DNA from: Shigella phage Sf22
Sequence record: MF158045
Reading direction: 5' to 3' (one strand)
DNA length: 64,000 bases
Part shown: positions 25,480 through 59,299 of the stretch, one piece after another
Layout of the letters: every line of letters begins with the position of its first letter
How positions within the stretch are numbered: the first letter of the stretch is position 1
Translations under genes and position numbers: made by a program
Notes under the pieces: model-generated
What the model saw: only the letters and a program-made list of their open reading frames with translations
Databases searched by the model: none
What the model was told of the DNA's origin: nothing

Positions 25480-26799
25480 TCACACATAAAACACATCATA
25501 ACGACCACGAGTGACACCTACATAAAGAAGTTGCTGAGCTAATTCAGCATCTGCATAATGAATACAAGGCGTATAAATGAAAGCACGGTCTACAGACATA
25601 CCCTGAGCTTTATGGAATGTTGATGCAGGAAGTGCTTTCACTTTACTGAACTGTGATTTAGCATCCCAAAAATCACTCCATGGAGCTTTTCCGCCTTTGT
25701 TCCAATTTTTATAAGTTTCTGCCGTTTTACCTAAAAATAGGTTAAACTTATATAGCTCTTCATCAGATGAAATTATTTTAATCTTTTCACGATAATATTC
25801 ATCATCGCCGTAAGTTTCTACTGTTAAATCCCAATGACGAATTAAGTATTCTCCAGGAACACCACGAGCTTTAACAAACGTTGATGTATACTCTGCTTCT
25901 ATAATACGAACTAATTGTCCATTATTAAAAATAATTTCTGATACAGGCTTTCCATCAATTTTATATGTTTTAATTAATGGTTCCTGCATTACAATAATTT
26001 CACCGACAATAAAATCTTTATCAGTTTCAAAAATCTTTTTACGAATAATGCTATTTAACTTGTCAACAGATTTATTCGTAAATGCCATTACGCGATTTTC
26101 AAACAAATCATCTAGAGATTTGACGATTGAAAAATAATTTACCATAAAATCGCGTAAAGCGGTATCACCAGTAAATCCACGTACTCCATGCCCGTCAACA
26201 ACTTTATCATAAATCCACTTACCGTTGCGAACATCAGTAGCTACATCAATAATAGGAGCATTACTGCGTTTAACTTCAGTGAGTTCACACTGATAAAAAT
26301 CTTTATGTGTAAAGAATGGACTGATATAAGCAGTGTTTTCTCCTGGGTCAACAGGTCTAATTTGCTTATTATCGCCTATTCCAATTATAGTACACCACGG
26401 TGGGATAGTTGAAAGCAAAATTTTGAAGAGCTTTCTATCATACATTGACACTTCGTCGCAGATTAATACCCTGCATTTAGCTAAATCTGGTACTTCTTTT
26501 TGTTCAAAAAGAACGTTTTCTTCATACGTAACTGGGTTAATTTTAAGAATACTGTGAATAGTACTCGCTTCTTTCCCCGACAGTTTTGAAAGAATCTTTT
26601 TAGCTGCATGAGTAGGAGCTGCTAAAATAATACCAGTTTCACCCGTAGATATTAAAGCTTCAATGATGAATTTTGTAAGAGTAGTCTTACCAGTACCAGC
26701 AGGTCCATTAATAGTTACATGATGTTTCTTTTCTTTAATAGCCCTCATAACGATGTTAAAGGCATTTTTTTGGCCTTCTGTCAAATCATCAAATGTCAT
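25480..26799 (-). CDS. dda: DNA helicase Dda (SF1B)
   Basis: 439 aa (T4 Dda 439 aa); Walker A GPAGTGKTT. Confidence 0.95.
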   Translation of the reverse strand: MTFDDLTEGQKNAFNIVMRAIKEKKHHVTINGPAGTGKTTLTKFIIEALISTGETGIILAAPTHAAKKILSKLSGKEASTIHSILKINPVTYEENVLFEQKEVPDLAKCRVLICDEVSMYDRKLFKILLSTIPPWCTIIGIGDNKQIRPVDPGENTAYISPFFTHKDFYQCELTEVKRSNAPIIDVATDVRNGKWIYDKVVDGHGVRGFTGDTALRDFMVNYFSIVKSLDDLFENRVMAFTNKSVDKLNSIIRKKIFETDKDFIVGEIIVMQEPLIKTYKIDGKPVSEIIFNNGQLVRIIEAEYTSTFVKARGVPGEYLIRHWDLTVETYGDDEYYREKIKIISSDEELYKFNLFLGKTAETYKNWNKGGKAPWSDFWDAKSQFSKVKALPASTFHKAQGMSVDRAFIYTPCIHYADAELAQQLLYVGVTRGRYDVFYV

Positions 26800-27107
26800 C
26801 GGAAAGTCCCTGCAATTGGAATACTAACAATACGCCCAGTATCTAGAATTCGTTGATATAATCTTTGTGTATCTACATCAGGCTTAACATGTTTAACTTC
26901 TATTTTATTAAACCAAAACTTGCGTGGAGTCTCAACTAATCTTGGAATTCCTTTACCTAAAGCTAATCGATACTGCTCTTTAAGAGTAGTAAATACTTTA
27001 TCAGCAATATTCCATTCAAAAAATACAGCAGGACGATGTTCATCAAGCGGAACTGGCGCCGTAAATCCGTCTTTGTCTCGGTAAACTATCGCATATACAT
27101 AAACCAT
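26796..27107 (-). CDS. Hypothetical protein (103 aa), dda.1-like by position
   Basis: ORF track; overlaps dda start. Confidence 0.5.
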   Translation of the reverse strand: MVYVYAIVYRDKDGFTAPVPLDEHRPAVFFEWNIADKVFTTLKEQYRLALGKGIPRLVETPRKFWFNKIEVKHVKPDVDTQRLYQRILDTGRIVSIPIAGTFR

Positions 27108-27108
27108 A

Positions 27109-27855
27109 TTATCCTCGGATAAGTTTAAAAATTGAACAATTCAGCGGATATCCTCTTTTCAGTTTAAGTTTATCAATAAAAGACAAGTTTTGATACCGCT
27201 CTACACCTTGAATAATTTTATCACACATATCATATTGCATTTCTGCTTCTGACAACTTTTTCACAGTTTTCCAATCCGAGCCTTTAAGAAGAACGTTCAG
27301 TTTAACAACTTCAGCGCCTTCTGCTATGCGAGAACCATCAATACGAGCTTTAAGTGCTATAATTCTTAGCTTAATGTCAGAGGTCTGTTTTGATTTAGAA
27401 AGCTGAGAAATGTGTTCAATTCGGTTTTCACGTTTTTTCTGTATAGCTTTAATTTGATTATAAGTCTTTTTGATTTTAGCCCATTTCTTTTCATCTAAAT
27501 TTAGTTTATGAACTTTTTTCGCAGATGAACGACCAATTCGCAAAGCAAATAAATCACGCTTTTCAATCAACTCTTCTAAAGTATAATCAGAACGAAATGT
27601 ATTATACTTTTTCTTTACTGCAATAACATTCCCTTTAATGTATCCAACGTTATTATCAAAACGTTCTAATGATAATTTCTCTCCTTCAATACGATTATCA
27701 AAAGGTTCTCCCGAGTAAGCGCAAACTTTCTGATCTAAAATGTTCTTAATGTAATTGAAGTCTAAGTTAAAATCTTTAGAACGTCTTTTTGCAGATGCCT
27801 GAGTATGCTCTAAACGACGTTTAATTTTACGAATTTGATTATTAGACAGTTTCAT
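27109..27855 (-). CDS. srd: Srd-position protein (248 aa), lysine-rich, with degenerate HNH/EndoVII-like motif
   Basis: Position between dda and modA as for T4 srd; segment CAYSGEPF...LSLERFDNNVGYIKGNVIAVKKKYNTFRSD resembles an HNH core lacking the Cys ligands. Confidence 0.45.
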   Translation of the reverse strand: MKLSNNQIRKIKRRLEHTQASAKRRSKDFNLDFNYIKNILDQKVCAYSGEPFDNRIEGEKLSLERFDNNVGYIKGNVIAVKKKYNTFRSDYTLEELIEKRDLFALRIGRSSAKKVHKLNLDEKKWAKIKKTYNQIKAIQKKRENRIEHISQLSKSKQTSDIKLRIIALKARIDGSRIAEGAEVVKLNVLLKGSDWKTVKKLSEAEMQYDMCDKIIQGVERYQNLSFIDKLKLKRGYPLNCSIFKLIRG

Positions 27856-27890: not shown

Positions 27891-27920
27891 ACTATAACAT
27901 TTTTACTTTAACTTGTAAAC
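27891..27920 (-). promoter_or_regulatory. T4-type early promoter upstream of srd-position ORF
   Basis: Minus strand GTTTAC, 18 nt, TATAGT. Confidence 0.55.
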
Positions 27921-27977: not shown

Positions 27978-28580
27978 TTATAGATTAAATCCTTCAAAAT
28001 CAAGAGTATAGATAGTGTATGTTGAATACTTTTTGTACTCATATCTATCTGCAATTTTAAATACACTTCCAGCTGGTATCATTACTTCTTGTTCATCTGA
28101 AACTAATTCCATATTACGATAACGATGGCTATCCGGAAACTTAAAGTTTGGATTGTATTCTTTACAGCGTAGAGCTTTTATAGCATACTCCTGGAAATTG
28201 AATACCATAGGAGCTTTGAATTCAAAAATAACTTGTGTGTTATACTCTAAACCGGAAGCAAAATGTAGAGCTATATTTTTATCATATGAAGCTGATACTA
28301 CTTTATCAAATGTAATAATATCAATTCCTTGATTTAATATTTGTTTAGTCTCAACTGGAACACCTCTCCAAAGAGGTTTATCGTTTGGAACCAAACGAGA
28401 TTTGATTATTTCATTTAACCAAGTATGGTCATCTGGCTTATTAGTAATACAATGAATTAAAAGTTCAATTTCAGATAAATTAAACCCTTCAGAAAGTAAT
28501 TCTTCACGAATAGAAGCACGCACCGATGCATCCATTGATTTTATTTTAAAATCTTTTAGTTGCATTACTGAGTATTTCAT
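27978..28580 (-). CDS. modA: ADP-ribosyltransferase ModA
   Basis: 200 aa (T4 ModA 200 aa); ART-like R...S...E-x-E pattern (LWRG, QEVMIPAG). Confidence 0.8.
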   Translation of the reverse strand: MKYSVMQLKDFKIKSMDASVRASIREELLSEGFNLSEIELLIHCITNKPDDHTWLNEIIKSRLVPNDKPLWRGVPVETKQILNQGIDIITFDKVVSASYDKNIALHFASGLEYNTQVIFEFKAPMVFNFQEYAIKALRCKEYNPNFKFPDSHRYRNMELVSDEQEVMIPAGSVFKIADRYEYKKYSTYTIYTLDFEGFNL

Positions 28581-29200
28581 TCAACTACCTCAATATCATA
28601 AACTTTAAATGTTCCAAATGAATCGTGTAATTTTTCTTTTGAAATAGAAGTTATTTTATACTTTCCAATTGGAATCATCCATTCTTGTTCATGTACAATC
28701 ATCATTAAGTTATCAGTACGCTCTGAATCTAATCCATCAGTATCTTCATACGTGTACTTAAACTCAGTATTAGGAGAAGAAAGTATAATATCGCTGATAT
28801 GGTCAGAGTAATTAAAAGCTTTATCAGTTTTTAAACGAAGTATTGTTTCAGTGAAATATTCAGCATAAGAAAAAGAACACGCTGTATGCAAACTAGTAGT
28901 AAATGAATCTACCCTGTTCGTTGAAAACACTTCTCCAACTTGTAAATCTTTAATAAGTTCTTTTGTCGATTTTGATATACCACGATATAACTGATAAGGC
29001 GATTTAGTTAAATGCTTTTTAATGATTTTATTCAATTGCCGATGAAGAGCTTCATTCTTTTTAGCTTCCATACATTGCCAAAGAACAGACTGCTCAAAAT
29101 CAGTAAATTTTTCACAGACCTTTTTATACATATCATATTGAAAATCAACGCTTTCAGCTTTTATAGATAACTGTTCAACATCTGCAAGATTAATAATCAT
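28577..29200 (-). CDS. modB: ADP-ribosyltransferase ModB
   Basis: 207 aa (T4 ModB 207 aa); paralog of modA (LYRGIS, QEWMIPIG); early promoter upstream. Confidence 0.8.
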   Translation of the reverse strand: MIINLADVEQLSIKAESVDFQYDMYKKVCEKFTDFEQSVLWQCMEAKKNEALHRQLNKIIKKHLTKSPYQLYRGISKSTKELIKDLQVGEVFSTNRVDSFTTSLHTACSFSYAEYFTETILRLKTDKAFNYSDHISDIILSSPNTEFKYTYEDTDGLDSERTDNLMMIVHEQEWMIPIGKYKITSISKEKLHDSFGTFKVYDIEVVE

Positions 29201-56544: not shown

Positions 56545-57015
56545 TTAATCATGTGTCCACACCCCATCGGTATTTGACCAAAGTCGCTGATTATCTGATC
56601 CTCGCCACAGCTTTTTGGTCGGAAGATTTTTCTCATACTTCCCATCAATAATAACATCAACATATTTAAGCATTTCTAGTTGTTTAATATCTTCAAACTT
56701 ATATCCTGTCCACAACCAAATGCTTTTACTGGGATAAAGATTTTTTACTGTTTGAACGATGCAATGAATAACATCTCGGTTATCAGGATAGAGAGGGTCT
56801 CCTCCAGTTATAGTTAATCCTTCTATATAATCATTATTCAAACATTCAATTAATTGCTCTAGTGTTTCACCAGTGAATGGAATACCATTTCTAGCATTCC
56901 ATGTTGATTTATTATAACACCCTTCACATTTATGCAAACAACCTGTAACGAAAAGAACGACCCTGCAACCAGGGCCATTCACAAAATCACAGGGATAAAA
57001 TCTATCGTAATTCAT
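56545..57015 (-). CDS. nrdG: Anaerobic ribonucleotide reductase activating protein NrdG (radical SAM)
   Basis: 156 aa; radical SAM cluster motif CLHKCEGC; overlaps nrdD stop. Confidence 0.9.
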   Translation of the reverse strand: MNYDRFYPCDFVNGPGCRVVLFVTGCLHKCEGCYNKSTWNARNGIPFTGETLEQLIECLNNDYIEGLTITGGDPLYPDNRDVIHCIVQTVKNLYPSKSIWLWTGYKFEDIKQLEMLKYVDVIIDGKYEKNLPTKKLWRGSDNQRLWSNTDGVWTHD

Positions 57016-58829
57016 TGGTGTTTAACCCTATGCATGATTTCTTTATTTTTACCGAGATTAAATCCGCGCTCGTTCGGATTTCCCAAATAACCACATGTTC
57101 TTCTTATGGTATTCATCTTTTTAGGATCAGTTTCTCCACAAATAGAACAAACAAATCCGTTTTCAGTAGGAGTCATTTCATGGGTACTTCCACATGTAAA
57201 ACATTTATCTACTGGCATATTAACACCAAAATAATCTAAATGTTGTGCAGCATAATCCCATACGGCCTCAAGACCTTTTAAGTTATTTTTCATATCAGGA
57301 AGTTCAACATAAGAAATGTGACCACCTGTCGCAATGAAATGATATGGCGCTTCACGAGAAATCTTTTCAAACGGAGTAATATTTTCTTCTACTGAAACAT
57401 GGAAACTGTTAGTGTACCAGCCTTTATCGGTAACATCTTTTACACTTCCATATTTTTCTGTATCAAGTTTACAGAAGCGATAACAAAGGTTTTCAGCAGG
57501 AGTCGAATATAAACTAAAAGCAAATCCAGTTCTTTCAGTCCACTGTTTAAGATGAGCATTCATTTTAGTTAAAATTTCTCGTCCAATATCACGACCGACA
57601 AGAATATTCAATTCGTGAATACCAATGTATCCTAAAGACACTGAACTTCTACCGTTTTTAAATAACTCAATTATGTCGTCATCAGGTTTAAGACGAACCC
57701 CGAATGCACCTTCTTGGTAAAGAATAGGAGCAACAGTAGCTTTAACTCCTTTTAAGGAACTAATTCTACACATCAAAGCTTCAAAACATAAATCCATTCG
57801 TTCATTGAATAATTCAGCAAATTTCTGTTCATTGAACTGTGTTCCAATATAAGAATCTAACGCGATGCGAGGAAGATTCAGTGTTACAACACCAAGATTA
57901 TTACGTCCATCAAGAATTTCATTACCAGTCGAATCTTTCCATACGCTCAAGAAACTACGGCATCCCATCGGAGAAACAGGAACAGATGAACCAGTGATAG
58001 CTTTATTGTTCTTAGCTGAAATAATATCAGGATACATCCTTTTGCTTGCACACTCTAGAGCAAGTTGCTTAATGTCGTAATTCGGATCGTCTTTATAAAG
58101 ATTAACGCCTTCTTCAACGAACATAACAAGCTTAGGGAAAATAGGAGTTATTCCATCACGACCAAGACCTTTAATACGATTTTTCAGAATTGCTTTCTGA
58201 ATCATTCGTTCAGTCCAGTCAGTTCCCGTACCAAATGTAATTGTTACAAAAGGCGTTTGTCCGTTTGAACTAAAGAGAGTATTTACTTCATATTCATAAG
58301 CTTGGAATGCATCGTATACGTCTTTTTCTGTTTTAGATTGAGCATAATTCAACGCATCAGCGATTTGCCATTTTTCTGCATCCTCAATATGTTTTGCATA
58401 GGTGCGTTTAACATAAGGAGAAAGTACTTTATCTACATTCGCAAAAGTCGTTCCGCCATATTGATGGGAAGCAACTTGCGCAGTAATTTGTGCCATAATT
58501 GCAGTAGCAACGCCAATTGATTTAGGAGTTTCAATCTGTGCATTACCAAGCTTAAATCCGTTCTCAAGCATTCCTTTTAAATCTACTAAACAGCAATTAG
58601 TAAATGGAAGAGCAGGGGAATAATCAATATCATGGAAATGAATAATTCCGCTTTCATGCGCTTTCATAATAAAAGACGGGACCATATTTTTGGCAATGTG
58701 TTTAGACACAATACCAGCCATAAGGTCCCGTTGAGTTGGAAAAACACGAGAATCTTTATTAGCATTCTCGTTTAAAAGGTCTTTATTAGTTTTATGAATC
58801 AATCCTTCAATTTCTTTTTCAATTGTCAT
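57012..58829 (-). CDS. nrdD: Anaerobic ribonucleoside-triphosphate reductase NrdD (uninterrupted)
   Basis: 605 aa; C-terminal glycyl-radical motif RTCGYLG and zinc ribbon CFTCG...CSICG; single continuous frame. Confidence 0.95.
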   Translation of the reverse strand: MTIEKEIEGLIHKTNKDLLNENANKDSRVFPTQRDLMAGIVSKHIAKNMVPSFIMKAHESGIIHFHDIDYSPALPFTNCCLVDLKGMLENGFKLGNAQIETPKSIGVATAIMAQITAQVASHQYGGTTFANVDKVLSPYVKRTYAKHIEDAEKWQIADALNYAQSKTEKDVYDAFQAYEYEVNTLFSSNGQTPFVTITFGTGTDWTERMIQKAILKNRIKGLGRDGITPIFPKLVMFVEEGVNLYKDDPNYDIKQLALECASKRMYPDIISAKNNKAITGSSVPVSPMGCRSFLSVWKDSTGNEILDGRNNLGVVTLNLPRIALDSYIGTQFNEQKFAELFNERMDLCFEALMCRISSLKGVKATVAPILYQEGAFGVRLKPDDDIIELFKNGRSSVSLGYIGIHELNILVGRDIGREILTKMNAHLKQWTERTGFAFSLYSTPAENLCYRFCKLDTEKYGSVKDVTDKGWYTNSFHVSVEENITPFEKISREAPYHFIATGGHISYVELPDMKNNLKGLEAVWDYAAQHLDYFGVNMPVDKCFTCGSTHEMTPTENGFVCSICGETDPKKMNTIRRTCGYLGNPNERGFNLGKNKEIMHRVKHQ

Positions 58830-59299
58830 TTTAAACTCTTTCTAAGCTGCTTCTTAAATGAAGCTATTAATTGTGTTTTAGTGTCAGATTCATTATATTC
58901 AAATCCTCTTTGAAGCATCTCAGCCATCATTTCCTCTTTTCCTAAACGAGAAAATTCCTTTGATTTATCTCCAACGAAGTTAGGGTGAATATTATTTTGG
59001 GTGTAATCGGATTTTAAATAAGTAAGTAAATTTTCTAGCCATTCAAGATAATCAACGCCTTGTCCCTTTAAGCCAGAACGATTAAATTTATGCTTCATTT
59101 GACCTTCCGCAGCATTGCAGAGATTACAGAGCAATCCACGTACCTTTCCTGCTTTTGGTCCATTTAATTCATGGTCATGGTCAAGGTGATTAGCTTGAAC
59201 ATCAGGATTTAGTTCTCGTTGGCAAATTAAGCATTTACCGTTTTGTGCATTATAAAATTTTTGTTTTTCTTCTTTATATAATTTGCCAGTCAATAACAT
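58826..59299 (-). CDS. 49: Recombination endonuclease VII gp49
   Basis: 157 aa; MLLTGKLYKEEKQKF...CLICQ...HLDHDH...LCNLCN matches T4 EndoVII as recalled. Confidence 0.9.
   Translation of the reverse strand: MLLTGKLYKEEKQKFYNAQNGKCLICQRELNPDVQANHLDHDHELNGPKAGKVRGLLCNLCNAAEGQMKHKFNRSGLKGQGVDYLEWLENLLTYLKSDYTQNNIHPNFVGDKSKEFSRLGKEEMMAEMLQRGFEYNESDTKTQLIASFKKQLRKSLK

What the first reader, a model, noticed from the sequence alone, without database searches (positions are those of the whole stretch)
27109..27855. Srd-position protein carries a degenerate HNH/EndoVII-like core
The segment CAYSGEPFDNRIEGEKLSLERFDNNVGYIKGNVIAVKKKYNTFRSD follows the layout of HNH nuclease cores (C-x-Y-C-G ... L-D-R-I-D-N ... 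G-Y ... N-V ... C-x-x-C-N) but the second Cys of each pair is replaced (CAYSG, KKKYN). This could be an inactivated nuclease fold reused as a nucleic-acid or protein-binding module. I recognised the pattern by eye; it is not a computed hit.
Basis: inference. Interest (0 to 1): 0.4.

Follow-up and report, generated by a model that had tools for sequence, protein, structure and literature searches.

The report
T4 Srd carries PacI-type nuclease domain
The phage T4 protein Srd, known only as a booster of the host RNA-cutting enzyme RNase E and still labelled "anti-sigma factor", has at its front end a zinc-free copy of the unusual tyrosine-type HNH nuclease fold of the restriction enzyme PacI, and every catalytic-type residue is still in place, so Srd may be a working enzyme and not only an adaptor.

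Summary
The ORF at 27109-27855 (-) is Srd, 247/248 identical to T4 Srd.

- **Homology.** The Srd N-terminal profile finds 11,540 cluster representatives with no Pfam model. A few keep the full C-x-Y-C-G ... D-R-x-D-N ... G-Y ... N-V ... C-x-x-C-N layout (hhalign 99.2%). These link to restriction enzyme PacI (hhalign 91%; the only PDB sequence hit).
- **EndoVII.** There is no relation to T4 endonuclease VII, which lies in the same window.
- **"Degenerate/inactivated" is not supported.** Only three of the four zinc ligands are lost (S48, K81, Y84). PacI itself lacks the catalytic His and uses a tyrosine after a D-R motif. Srd keeps E64-R65, Y72, N76 and N85 at identical spacing, and these are invariant in 74/74 Srd-architecture representatives.

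Best reading: a zinc-less PacI-type ββα-metal domain with an intact active site, fused to a helical C-terminal half, working with RNase E. Catalysis is inferred, not shown. The "anti-sigma" label finds no support.

The parts
27109..27855 (-). srd gene (248 codons plus stop), encoding T4 Srd
   Evidence: ORF list. phrog_1400 E=2.9e-108. 247/248 identical to T4 Srd. 98-99% DNA identity to many Tequatrovirus records.
27556..27846 (-). N-terminal PacI-type ββα-metal (His-Me finger) domain, residues 4-100
27736..27843 (-). Helical hairpin before the core (residues 5-40), carrying the conserved S-A-x-x-R-x-x-x-F-x-L motif
   Evidence: Model helices 5-24 and 33-40, pLDDT above 90. Conservation of S21, A22, R25, F29 and L31. 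PacI has an N-terminal HTH-like part (PMC5714182).
27709..27723 (-). Vestigial zinc knuckle C45-A-Y-S48-G, equivalent to PacI C63-G-Y-C66-G
   Evidence: Alignments to zinc-bearing relatives and to PacI. C45 is present in 335 of 336 domains and S/T48 in most.
27592..27675 (-). ββα-metal core, residues 61-88: strand LSLER, loop with G71-Y72, strand VIAVK, helix KKYNTFR
   Evidence: Secondary structure of the model. Gapless alignment to PacI 89-116.
27661..27666 (-). E64-R65, equivalent to the PacI D92-R93 'DR' motif (Asp is a metal ligand in PacI)
   Evidence: E/D64 and R65 are conserved in 215 and 214 of 216 domains, and E-R in 74/74 Srd-type proteins. PacI residue roles from PMC4081073 and PMC11529989.
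27640..27642 (-). Y72, equivalent to PacI Y100, the loop tyrosine that replaces the catalytic His
   Evidence: The spacing from R to Y is 7 and from Y to N is 13 in both proteins. Y is present in 215/216 domains. Y100 is the only Tyr between the DR and CxxCN motifs in PacI, and the literature places the catalytic Tyr in that loop (PMC5714182, PMC11529989).
27628..27630 (-). N76, the central Asn of the H-N-H layout (PacI N104)
   Evidence: Invariant in 216/216 domains.
27601..27615 (-). K81-K-K-Y84-N85, equivalent to PacI C109-F-I-C112-N113: two zinc ligands lost, the metal-binding Asn kept
   Evidence: N85 is present in 212/216 domains. Zinc-bearing relatives have C-x-x-C-N here.
27112..27525 (-). 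Srd-specific helical C-terminal half (residues 111-248), ending in the conserved tail NLSFIDKLKLKRGYPLNCSIFKLIRG
27891..27919 (-). Promoter-like site TTTACA-17-TATAGT with an upstream TG, about 35 nt before the srd start codon
   Evidence: Consensus scan, 10 of 12 matches. The number of such sites in the region is not above the shuffled expectation, so this is only consistent with early expression.

Best explanation
Srd is a two-part protein.

**N-terminal domain (shown by computation).** Residues about 4-100 are a zinc-less member of a very large, mostly viral, un-curated family of tyrosine-type ββα-metal (His-Me finger/HNH) nuclease domains. The only solved relative of this family is the restriction enzyme PacI.

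**State of the active site (shown by alignment).** The domain is not a decayed nuclease.
- It has lost three of the four cysteines of the structural zinc knuckle.
- It keeps the whole PacI-type active-site set: E64 and N85 at the metal-ligand positions, R65 at the PacI R93 position of the 'DR' motif, Y72 in the loop in place of the missing His, and the structural N76.

**C-terminal half (inferred).** Residues 111-248 form long helices found only in Srd-type proteins. I infer that they make the reported contact with the catalytic half of RNase E, or a dimer contact.

**Mechanism (inferred).** Srd uses the conserved site to grip the phosphodiester backbone of nucleic acid with one metal ion. The substrate is most plausibly host RNA, handled together with RNase E. 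Srd is probably still able to cut it.

The confidence figure of 0.55 is for the whole statement. For the fold and homology alone it is about 0.9. For real catalytic activity it is about 0.45.
For: **Identity.** phrog_1400 at E=2.9e-108; 247/248 identical to T4 Srd.

**Family.** 11,540 cluster representatives, none with a Pfam domain.

**Homology chain.**
- Srd-only profile against zinc-bearing relatives: hhalign 99.2%, E=1.9e-19.
- Those relatives against PacI residues 61-119: 91.4%, E=9e-7.
- P0143 alone finds PacI as its only PDB hit, E=0.016.
- The 56-sequence family profile has PacI as its top PDB hit.

**Fold.**
- Models have pLDDT 88.6 (full length) and 82.1 (N-domain).
- Foldseek: probability 0.99 for Gme HNH and for PacI.

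**Active site.**
- The alignment to PacI D92-R93 / Y100 / N104 / N113 / K116 is gapless.
- C45, R65, Y72, N76 and N85 are conserved in 98-100% of 216 domains.
- They are conserved in 100% of 74 Srd-architecture representatives, which share at most 50% identity.
- PacI chemistry: Tyr replaces His, and Asp plus Asn bind the metal (PMC5714182, PMC4081073, PMC11529989).

**Relatives look like nucleases.** Several have tandem domains with HTH or zinc-ribbon modules, an architecture typical of homing endonucleases.

**Biology.** Srd binds the N-terminal catalytic half of RNase E and speeds host mRNA decay (Qi et al. 2015, as cited in PMC4980113, PMC7430671, PMC13232886).
Against: - No enzymatic test exists, and no model coordinates could be inspected. 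The geometry of E64, Y72 and N85 is therefore inferred from the alignment only.
- The zinc site is gone. One paper states that zinc is needed for PacI cleavage (PMC11529989).
- The metal-ligand position is always Glu in Srd-type proteins. PacI and about half of the other relatives have Asp there.
- By my recollection of Qi et al. 2015 (the paper is not held in the library), Srd no longer destabilised mRNAs in RNase E-defective cells. One 5'-triphosphate test RNA also still needed RppH. Both points argue against Srd acting as an independent RNase.
- The direct Srd-family to PacI sequence scores are weak on their own: E=0.31 and hhalign 56%.
- The polar residues could be conserved for binding and not for chemistry.
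Confidence: 0.55

Rival explanations
1. Pseudo-nuclease adaptor. The fold is PacI-like, but Srd no longer cuts anything. The domain serves only as a binding surface for RNA or for the RNase E catalytic domain, and activates RNase E by protein-protein contact as RapZ does.
For: - Three of the four zinc ligands are lost.
- Glu is fixed at the Asp position.
- The literature treats Srd as an RNase E-binding activator (PMC7430671, PMC4980113, PMC13232886).
- The RNase E dependence of the Srd effect (Qi et al. 2015, from memory) fits an adaptor.
- The His-Me finger superfamily has precedents for binding-only domains, namely SMAD MH1 and Enpp (PMC5714182).
Against: - Known inactive His-Me fingers have lost the His/Tyr and the metal ligands (PMC5714182).
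- Srd-type proteins keep every one of them in 74/74 representatives sharing at most 50% identity.
- Most relatives with nuclease-like architectures also lack the zinc ligands, so zinc loss alone does not mark inactivity.
Confidence: 0.33
2. DNA endonuclease. Srd is a PacI-like DNA nicking or cutting enzyme, directed at host cytosine DNA or acting like a homing enzyme. Its effect on mRNA stability is secondary.
For: - PacI and all the structural neighbours are DNases.
- Relatives carry HTH and zinc-ribbon DNA-binding modules in homing-endonuclease-like arrangements.
- Sibling PHROG families are labelled endonuclease.
Against: - The Srd architecture has no extra DNA-binding module, only helices.
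- The reported phenotype is RNA decay that depends on RNase E, plus physical binding to RNase E (PMC4980113, PMC13232886).
- By established T4 genetics (my own knowledge), host DNA breakdown is accounted for by EndoII, EndoIV and gp46/47.
Confidence: 0.08
3. Anti-sigma factor or decoy of sigma70/sigmaS, as written in GenBank and PHROG annotations.
For: Only the annotation strings, which go back to a weak similarity to rpoD.
Against: - No sigma-factor Pfam family appears even at E<=10.
- The conserved part of the protein is the nuclease-like domain.
Confidence: 0.03
4. Endonuclease VII-like junction resolvase relative, or a chance resemblance with no HNH relationship.
For: - phrog_1035 is labelled 'endonuclease VII'.
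- One relative has a faint Pfam Endonuclease_7 hit, E=0.15.
Against: - hhalign against T4 gp49 gives probability 0.3%, and BLASTP finds nothing.
- Chance is excluded by E-values of 1e-16 to 1e-19 and by the two fold searches.
Confidence: 0.01

Closest known systems
Restriction endonuclease PacI (PDB 3LDY/3M7K); group 20 of the His-Me finger classification of Jablonska et al. 2017
   Same: - Same N-terminal helices followed by a ββα-metal core.
- Same unusual active-site layout without the canonical His: [D/E]-R, then Tyr 7 residues later in the loop, Asn 4 further on, Asn 9 further on in the helix, and a basic residue 3 further on.
   Different: - PacI has two Cys4 zinc sites; Srd keeps one cysteine of one site.
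- PacI has Asp where Srd has Glu.
- PacI is 142 aa with no helical C-terminal half.
- PacI cuts TTAATTAA in DNA, whereas Srd's reported role is stimulating RNase E on host mRNA.
- Direct sequence similarity is only detectable through intermediates.
Phage families phrog_3322 'endonuclease', phrog_3118 'HNH endonuclease', phrog_1035 'endonuclease VII' and phrog_4592 'decoy of host sigma70'
   Same: All contain the same domain as the Srd N-terminus: E-values of 1e-18 to 9e-8 for Srd itself and cross-hits for eight relatives.
   Different: - They lack the Srd helical half.
- Many have two tandem domains or HTH/zinc-ribbon modules.
- The names are automatic labels; none is backed by a Pfam model.
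Canonical HNH nucleases with a CxxC...CxxC zinc knuckle (T4 endonuclease VII, McrA, Hpy99I, Cas9 HNH domain)
   Different: - They use His as the general base; Srd has Arg at that position and a loop Tyr.
- There is no detectable sequence relation to gp49.
RapZ and CsrD, host adaptor proteins that activate RNase E through its N-terminal domain
   Same: The reported mode of action: binding to the catalytic half of RNase E and stimulation of cleavage (PMC7430671, PMC13232886).
   Different: The fold is unrelated. This is a comparison of function only, taken from the literature and not tested here.

Membership tests
T4 Srd orthologue group (phrog_1400) | Full-length sequence match and conserved position between dda.1 and modA | tested here: met
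   E=2.9e-108 over residues 4-248. 247/248 identical to T4 Srd. Gene order confirmed.
His-Me finger / ββα-metal (HNH) superfamily | β-hairpin followed by an α-helix, with structural similarity to solved members | tested here: met
   [not shown]
His-Me finger / ββα-metal (HNH) superfamily | Catalytic His at the end of the first strand | tested here: not met
   The position is R65 in Srd and Arg in 214/216 relatives. PacI also has Arg here, R93.
His-Me finger / ββα-metal (HNH) superfamily | Metal-binding Asn/His in the helix and a structural Asn before the second strand | tested here: met
   N85 is present in 212/216 domains and N76 in 216/216. They align with PacI N113 and N104.
PacI group (tyrosine-type His-Me finger) | 'DR' motif plus a tyrosine in the loop that takes over the role of His | tested here: met
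   E64-R65 and Y72 have the same spacing as PacI D92-R93 and Y100. The Asp is conservatively replaced by Glu. Residue roles come from PMC5714182, PMC4081073 and PMC11529989.
PacI group (tyrosine-type His-Me finger) | Two Cys4 structural zinc sites | tested here: not met
   Of the knuckle C63/C66/C109/C112, Srd keeps only C45 (with S48, K81, Y84). The whole N-domain contains a single cysteine.
PacI group (tyrosine-type His-Me finger) | Statistically significant sequence homology | tested here: met
   Transitive chain: Srd profile to zinc-bearing relatives 99.2%, those to PacI 91.4%. The direct comparison gives only E=0.31 and 56%.
PacI group (tyrosine-type His-Me finger) | Metal-dependent sequence-specific DNA cleavage as a homodimer | not testable with these tools
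   Needs biochemistry.
Endonuclease VII (Pfam PF02945) | Profile or sequence match to gp49 and the H-x-D-H-D-H ... C-x-x-C-N motif | tested here: not met
   No Pfam hit. hhalign against gp49 gives 0.3%. BLASTP finds nothing.
Anti-sigma factor / sigma70 decoy | Similarity to sigma70 regions or to known anti-sigma folds | tested here: not met
   [not shown]
RNase E activators (functional class) | Binding to the RNase E N-terminal half and stimulation of cleavage | not testable with these tools
   Reported for T4 Srd by Qi et al. 2015, cited in PMC4980113, PMC7430671 and PMC13232886. The window protein differs from T4 Srd by one residue.

The most novel reading that the evidence does not exclude
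Srd is itself a metal-dependent, tyrosine-type endonuclease acting on RNA (or on RNA-DNA hybrids or transcribed DNA) while docked on RNase E. On this reading the reported "stimulation of RNase E" is really a two-nuclease relay. Srd makes first cuts that leave 5'-phosphate ends or otherwise open up host transcripts, and RNase E finishes the job. This would be the first RNA-directed member of the PacI-type His-Me finger group. It would also give a function to a family of more than 11,000 uncharacterised protein clusters, most of those examined being viral.
Probability: 0.15. Interest if true: 0.8.

Novelty: new variant of a known kind. Interest (0 to 1): 0.5.

Why it matters
- **Annotation.** Srd is one of only a few proteins known to bind the catalytic half of RNase E, and it drives the shut-down of host mRNA early in T4 infection. 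Its sequence has carried an "anti-sigma factor" label with no domain assignment.
- **Testable hypothesis.** If its most conserved part is a PacI-type nuclease domain with an intact active site, the mechanism can be tested with four point mutants: E64A, R65A, Y72F and N85A. That experiment decides between "adaptor" and "enzyme".
- **Databases.** The anti-sigma annotation propagated through more than 600 phage records (654 records match the query region) should be revised.
- **Family size.** PacI was regarded as a small, giant-virus-centred group of 88 sequences in the 2017 classification. It turns out to be the solved representative of a very large, mostly zinc-less family with no Pfam model.

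Tried and rejected
**Searches that found nothing**
- Pfam and NCBIfam scans of Srd gave no significant hit.
- Srd alone, and the Srd-only profile, found nothing meaningful among PDB sequences.
- A search of the large protein collection with a 55-residue PacI fragment found no candidates. I therefore could not build a PacI-family profile or see the whole PacI sequence.
- Cluster look-ups of 10 relatives gave almost no names.
- The PacI paper (PMC2886031), Qi et al. 2015 (PMC4649665) and the T4 genome review (PMC150520) are not held. The supplement of the His-Me finger classification is not held either.
- Three literature searches for Srd together with HNH or nuclease found no paper making the link.

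**Readings tested and rejected**
- Endonuclease VII relation: rejected.
- A scan of all six-frame ORFs of the window with the family profile found no second copy of the domain.

**Superseded or uninformative**
- The first PacI alignment placed C45 on PacI C66. The alignment through zinc-bearing relatives places C45 on C63 and S48 on C66, and I adopted it because C-x-Y-C-G matches C-G-Y-C-G.
- The promoter scan gives a good early-type site upstream of srd, but the site count is not above the shuffled expectation.

Full report
**1. What is at the coordinates**

The window is a Tequatrovirus (T4-type) genome segment. The ORF at 27109-27855 on the minus strand encodes 248 residues. Its neighbours are dda (25480-26799), dda.1 (26796-27107), modA (27978-28580) and modB (28577-29200), which is the order in T4.

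The protein matches the PHROG family 'Srd anti-sigma factor' at E=2.9e-108 over its whole length. It is 247/248 identical to T4 Srd. The DNA is 98-99% identical to many T4-like phages. A promoter-like site, TTTACA-17-TATAGT with an upstream TG, lies about 35 nt upstream (27919-27891). It fits early expression, but the scan finds no more such sites than shuffled sequence gives.

**2. Is the HNH-like pattern real?**

Curated libraries do not see it. Pfam and NCBIfam give nothing significant, and Srd alone finds nothing among PDB sequences.

Phage family profiles do see it. Residues about 4-100 (up to 158 for phrog_3118) match phrog_3322 'endonuclease' (1e-18), phrog_3118 'HNH endonuclease' (1e-16), phrog_4592 'decoy of host sigma70' (4e-13) and phrog_1035 'endonuclease VII' (9e-8).

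I aligned 17 Srd orthologues sharing down to 31% identity (A1). Of the 32 invariant columns, 29 lie between residues 21 and 96, so the N-terminal part is the constrained part of the protein.

A profile of 11 Srd N-terminal domains (A2) was scored against 1.84 billion cluster representatives. It found 11,540 proteins at E<=1e-3 and 787 at E<=1e-10. About 74 of the listed proteins also carry the Srd-type C-terminal half. The rest carry the domain alone, behind an N-terminal extension, or twice in tandem. One dinoflagellate protein has four copies. None of the relatives examined has a Pfam domain or an informative name.

**3. The conserved signature**

In the best 216 domains the conservation is as follows:

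| Srd position | Residue | Count |
|---|---|---|
| 45 | C | 216/216 |
| 64 | E or D | 215/216 |
| 65 | R | 214/216 |
| 67 | D or N | 214/216 |
| 71 | G | 208/216 |
| 72 | Y | 215/216 |
| 76 | N | 216/216 |
| 85 | N | 212/216 |
| 88 | R or K | 181/216 |

The consensus is C-x-Y-[ST]-G ... [ST]-x-[ED]-R-[IV]-[DN]-N-x-x-G-Y-x-x-G-N-V ... N-x-x-[KR].

Five of 336 domains (in P0143, P0172 and P0259) carry a full zinc knuckle. They read C-x-Y-C-G ... The Srd-only profile aligns to these with hhalign probability 99.2%, E=1.9e-19. CAYSG falls on C-x-Y-C-G, and V-K-K-K-Y-N falls on C-C-x-x-C-N.

C45 is kept and S48 replaces the second Cys of the first pair. Both Cys of the second pair are replaced, by K81 and Y84. 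Loss of these ligands is common in the family: 201 of 336 domains keep only C45.

**4. Fold**

AlphaFold2 models are confident: full length pLDDT 88.6, with the N-domain blocks above 90, and the N-domain alone 82.1. The predicted elements are:
- helices 5-24 and 33-40;
- a small hairpin around CAYSGE;
- strand 61-65 (LSLER);
- a loop containing G71-Y72;
- strand 77-81 (VIAVK);
- helix 82-88, containing N85.

This is a ββα-metal unit.

**5. Sequence link to PacI**

- A 56-sequence family profile (A3) has PacI as its top PDB sequence hit. The E-value of 0.31 is weak, but the core alignment is gapless.
- hhalign of A3 against the PacI fragment gives 56%, P=1e-4.
- The zinc-bearing relative P0143 finds PacI as its only PDB hit at E=0.016.
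- The alignment of zinc-bearing domains (A4) matches PacI residues 61-119 at 91.4%, E=9e-7.

The resulting equivalences are:

| Srd | PacI |
|---|---|
| C45 | C63 |
| S48 | C66 |
| E64-R65 | D92-R93 |
| D67 | D95 |
| G71-Y72 | G99-Y100 |
| N76 | N104 |
| K81 | C109 |
| Y84 | C112 |
| N85 | N113 |
| R88 | K116 |

**6. Why "inactivated" does not follow**

PacI is the known exception among HNH enzymes.
- The catalytic His is absent, and a tyrosine in the loop between the strands takes its role (PMC5714182; PMC3384342).
- The single metal ion is held by one Asp and one Asn, with Tyr positioned as the base (PMC4081073).
- The catalytic residues are summarised as 'H, DR and CxxCN', with the tyrosine following the DR motif (PMC11529989).

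In the PacI stretch seen here, the only tyrosine between DR and CxxCN is Y100. Srd has the same set at the same spacing.

In the 74 representatives with Srd architecture, each from a different 50%-identity cluster, the following are invariant: C45, Y47, E64, R65, G71, Y72, G75, N76, V77, V80 and N85. R88 is present in 72 of 74. His-Me finger domains known to be inactive (SMAD MH1, Enpp) have lost these residues (PMC5714182).

What Srd has lost is the structural zinc knuckle. One paper states that PacI needs it for cleavage (PMC11529989). Against that, most relatives also lack it, including those with homing-endonuclease-like architectures. The sequence therefore points to a preserved site and not a decayed one. 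Whether it still cuts is not shown.

**7. Endonuclease VII and sigma**

**8. The rest of the protein and the known biology**

According to the literature, Srd binds the N-terminal catalytic half of RNase E and accelerates host mRNA decay (Qi et al. 2015, as cited in PMC4980113, PMC7430671, PMC13232886 and PMC9409239). No paper in the library connects Srd with an HNH or His-Me finger fold.

From my own memory of Qi et al. 2015, the effect needed functional RNase E, and one 5'-triphosphate test RNA still needed RppH. Both points weigh against Srd being an autonomous RNase.

**9. Mechanism**

- **Shown by computation:** the fold, the homology to the PacI type, loss of the zinc ligands, and retention and strict conservation of the PacI-type active-site residues.
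- **Inferred:** the site is functional. It would hold a metal ion through E64 and N85 and contact the backbone phosphate, with R65 at the position of PacI R93 and Y72 as base or nucleophile. The substrate would be nucleic acid, most plausibly host RNA presented to or shared with RNase E. The helical half would provide the RNase E contact or a dimer contact.
- **Probabilities:** about 0.9 for the fold and homology, about 0.45 for real catalysis, and about 0.33 for a binding-only pseudo-nuclease.
- **Most novel reading not excluded:** a two-nuclease relay in which Srd makes the first cuts. I give it 0.15.

**10. Relatives elsewhere**

tblastn with a stand-alone relative finds the domain in 1,441 phage records, among them Escherichia, Klebsiella, Shigella, Acinetobacter, Pseudomonas and Vibrio phages. 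Annotations range from 'anti-sigma factor' to 'HNH endonuclease'. Two metagenomic homologues lie among small unannotated genes on contigs of 215 and 402 kb. One of them abuts an ADP-ribosylglycohydrolase gene.

**11. Verdict**

The HNH-fold interpretation is supported, with PacI and not endonuclease VII as the relative. The "inactivated" part is not supported.

Srd fails one defining PacI feature, the zinc sites. It also belongs to a large family without a curated model. I therefore class it as a new variant of a known kind.

Interest is moderate at 0.5. It would not overturn anything. It does replace a wrong annotation, and it gives a well-studied T4 host-takeover factor a concrete hypothesis that point mutants can test.

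Noticed in passing
window 58826-59299 (-) and 57012-58829 (-): T4 endonuclease VII (gp49, 157 aa, with the canonical HLDHDH ... CNLCN HNH motif) and nrdD lie in the same window. gp49 served as an internal negative control for the EndoVII idea.
   Followed up: yes
L001 6001-6570 and 6564-7493: On a 402-kb metagenomic contig, a 189-aa homologue of the Srd N-domain (P0206) overlaps by 7 nt the start of an ADP-ribosylglycohydrolase gene. In T4, srd sits next to the ADP-ribosyltransferase genes modA and modB. This may be coincidence or a recurring host-takeover neighbourhood.
   Followed up: no
protein P0042 (Polarella glacialis CAE8651769.1): A dinoflagellate protein of 852 aa carries four copies of the Srd/PacI-type domain (C-x-Y-S-G ... 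S-L-E-R-x-N-N ... G-Y ... N-C). The family therefore reaches eukaryotes, or their viruses or integrated viral DNA.
   Followed up: partly
window 27721-27723 (-), codon C45: The single cysteine left from the zinc knuckle is present in 335 of 336 related domains, although the other three ligands are absent in 201 of them. A lone invariant Cys with no partners is unexplained. It could be a structural packing residue, a redox sensor or a catalytic helper.
   Followed up: partly
window 27112-27189 (-), residues 223-248: The C-terminal tail NLSFIDKLKLKRGYPLNCSIFKLIRG is conserved in orthologues down to 31% identity. G235 is invariant, and L232, P237 and L245 nearly so. It is a candidate docking motif, for example for RNase E or the membrane.
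   Followed up: no
[not shown]
   Followed up: no
window 27264-27266 (-), residue 197: The only difference from reference T4 Srd is T197 here against I197 in T4, in the third long helix.
   Followed up: yes
window 27107-27109: The dda.1 start codon ends at 27107 and the srd stop codon begins at 27109, so the two genes are separated by a single base. This is typical T4 gene packing and suggests co-transcription, and possibly translational coupling, of srd and dda.1.
   Followed up: no
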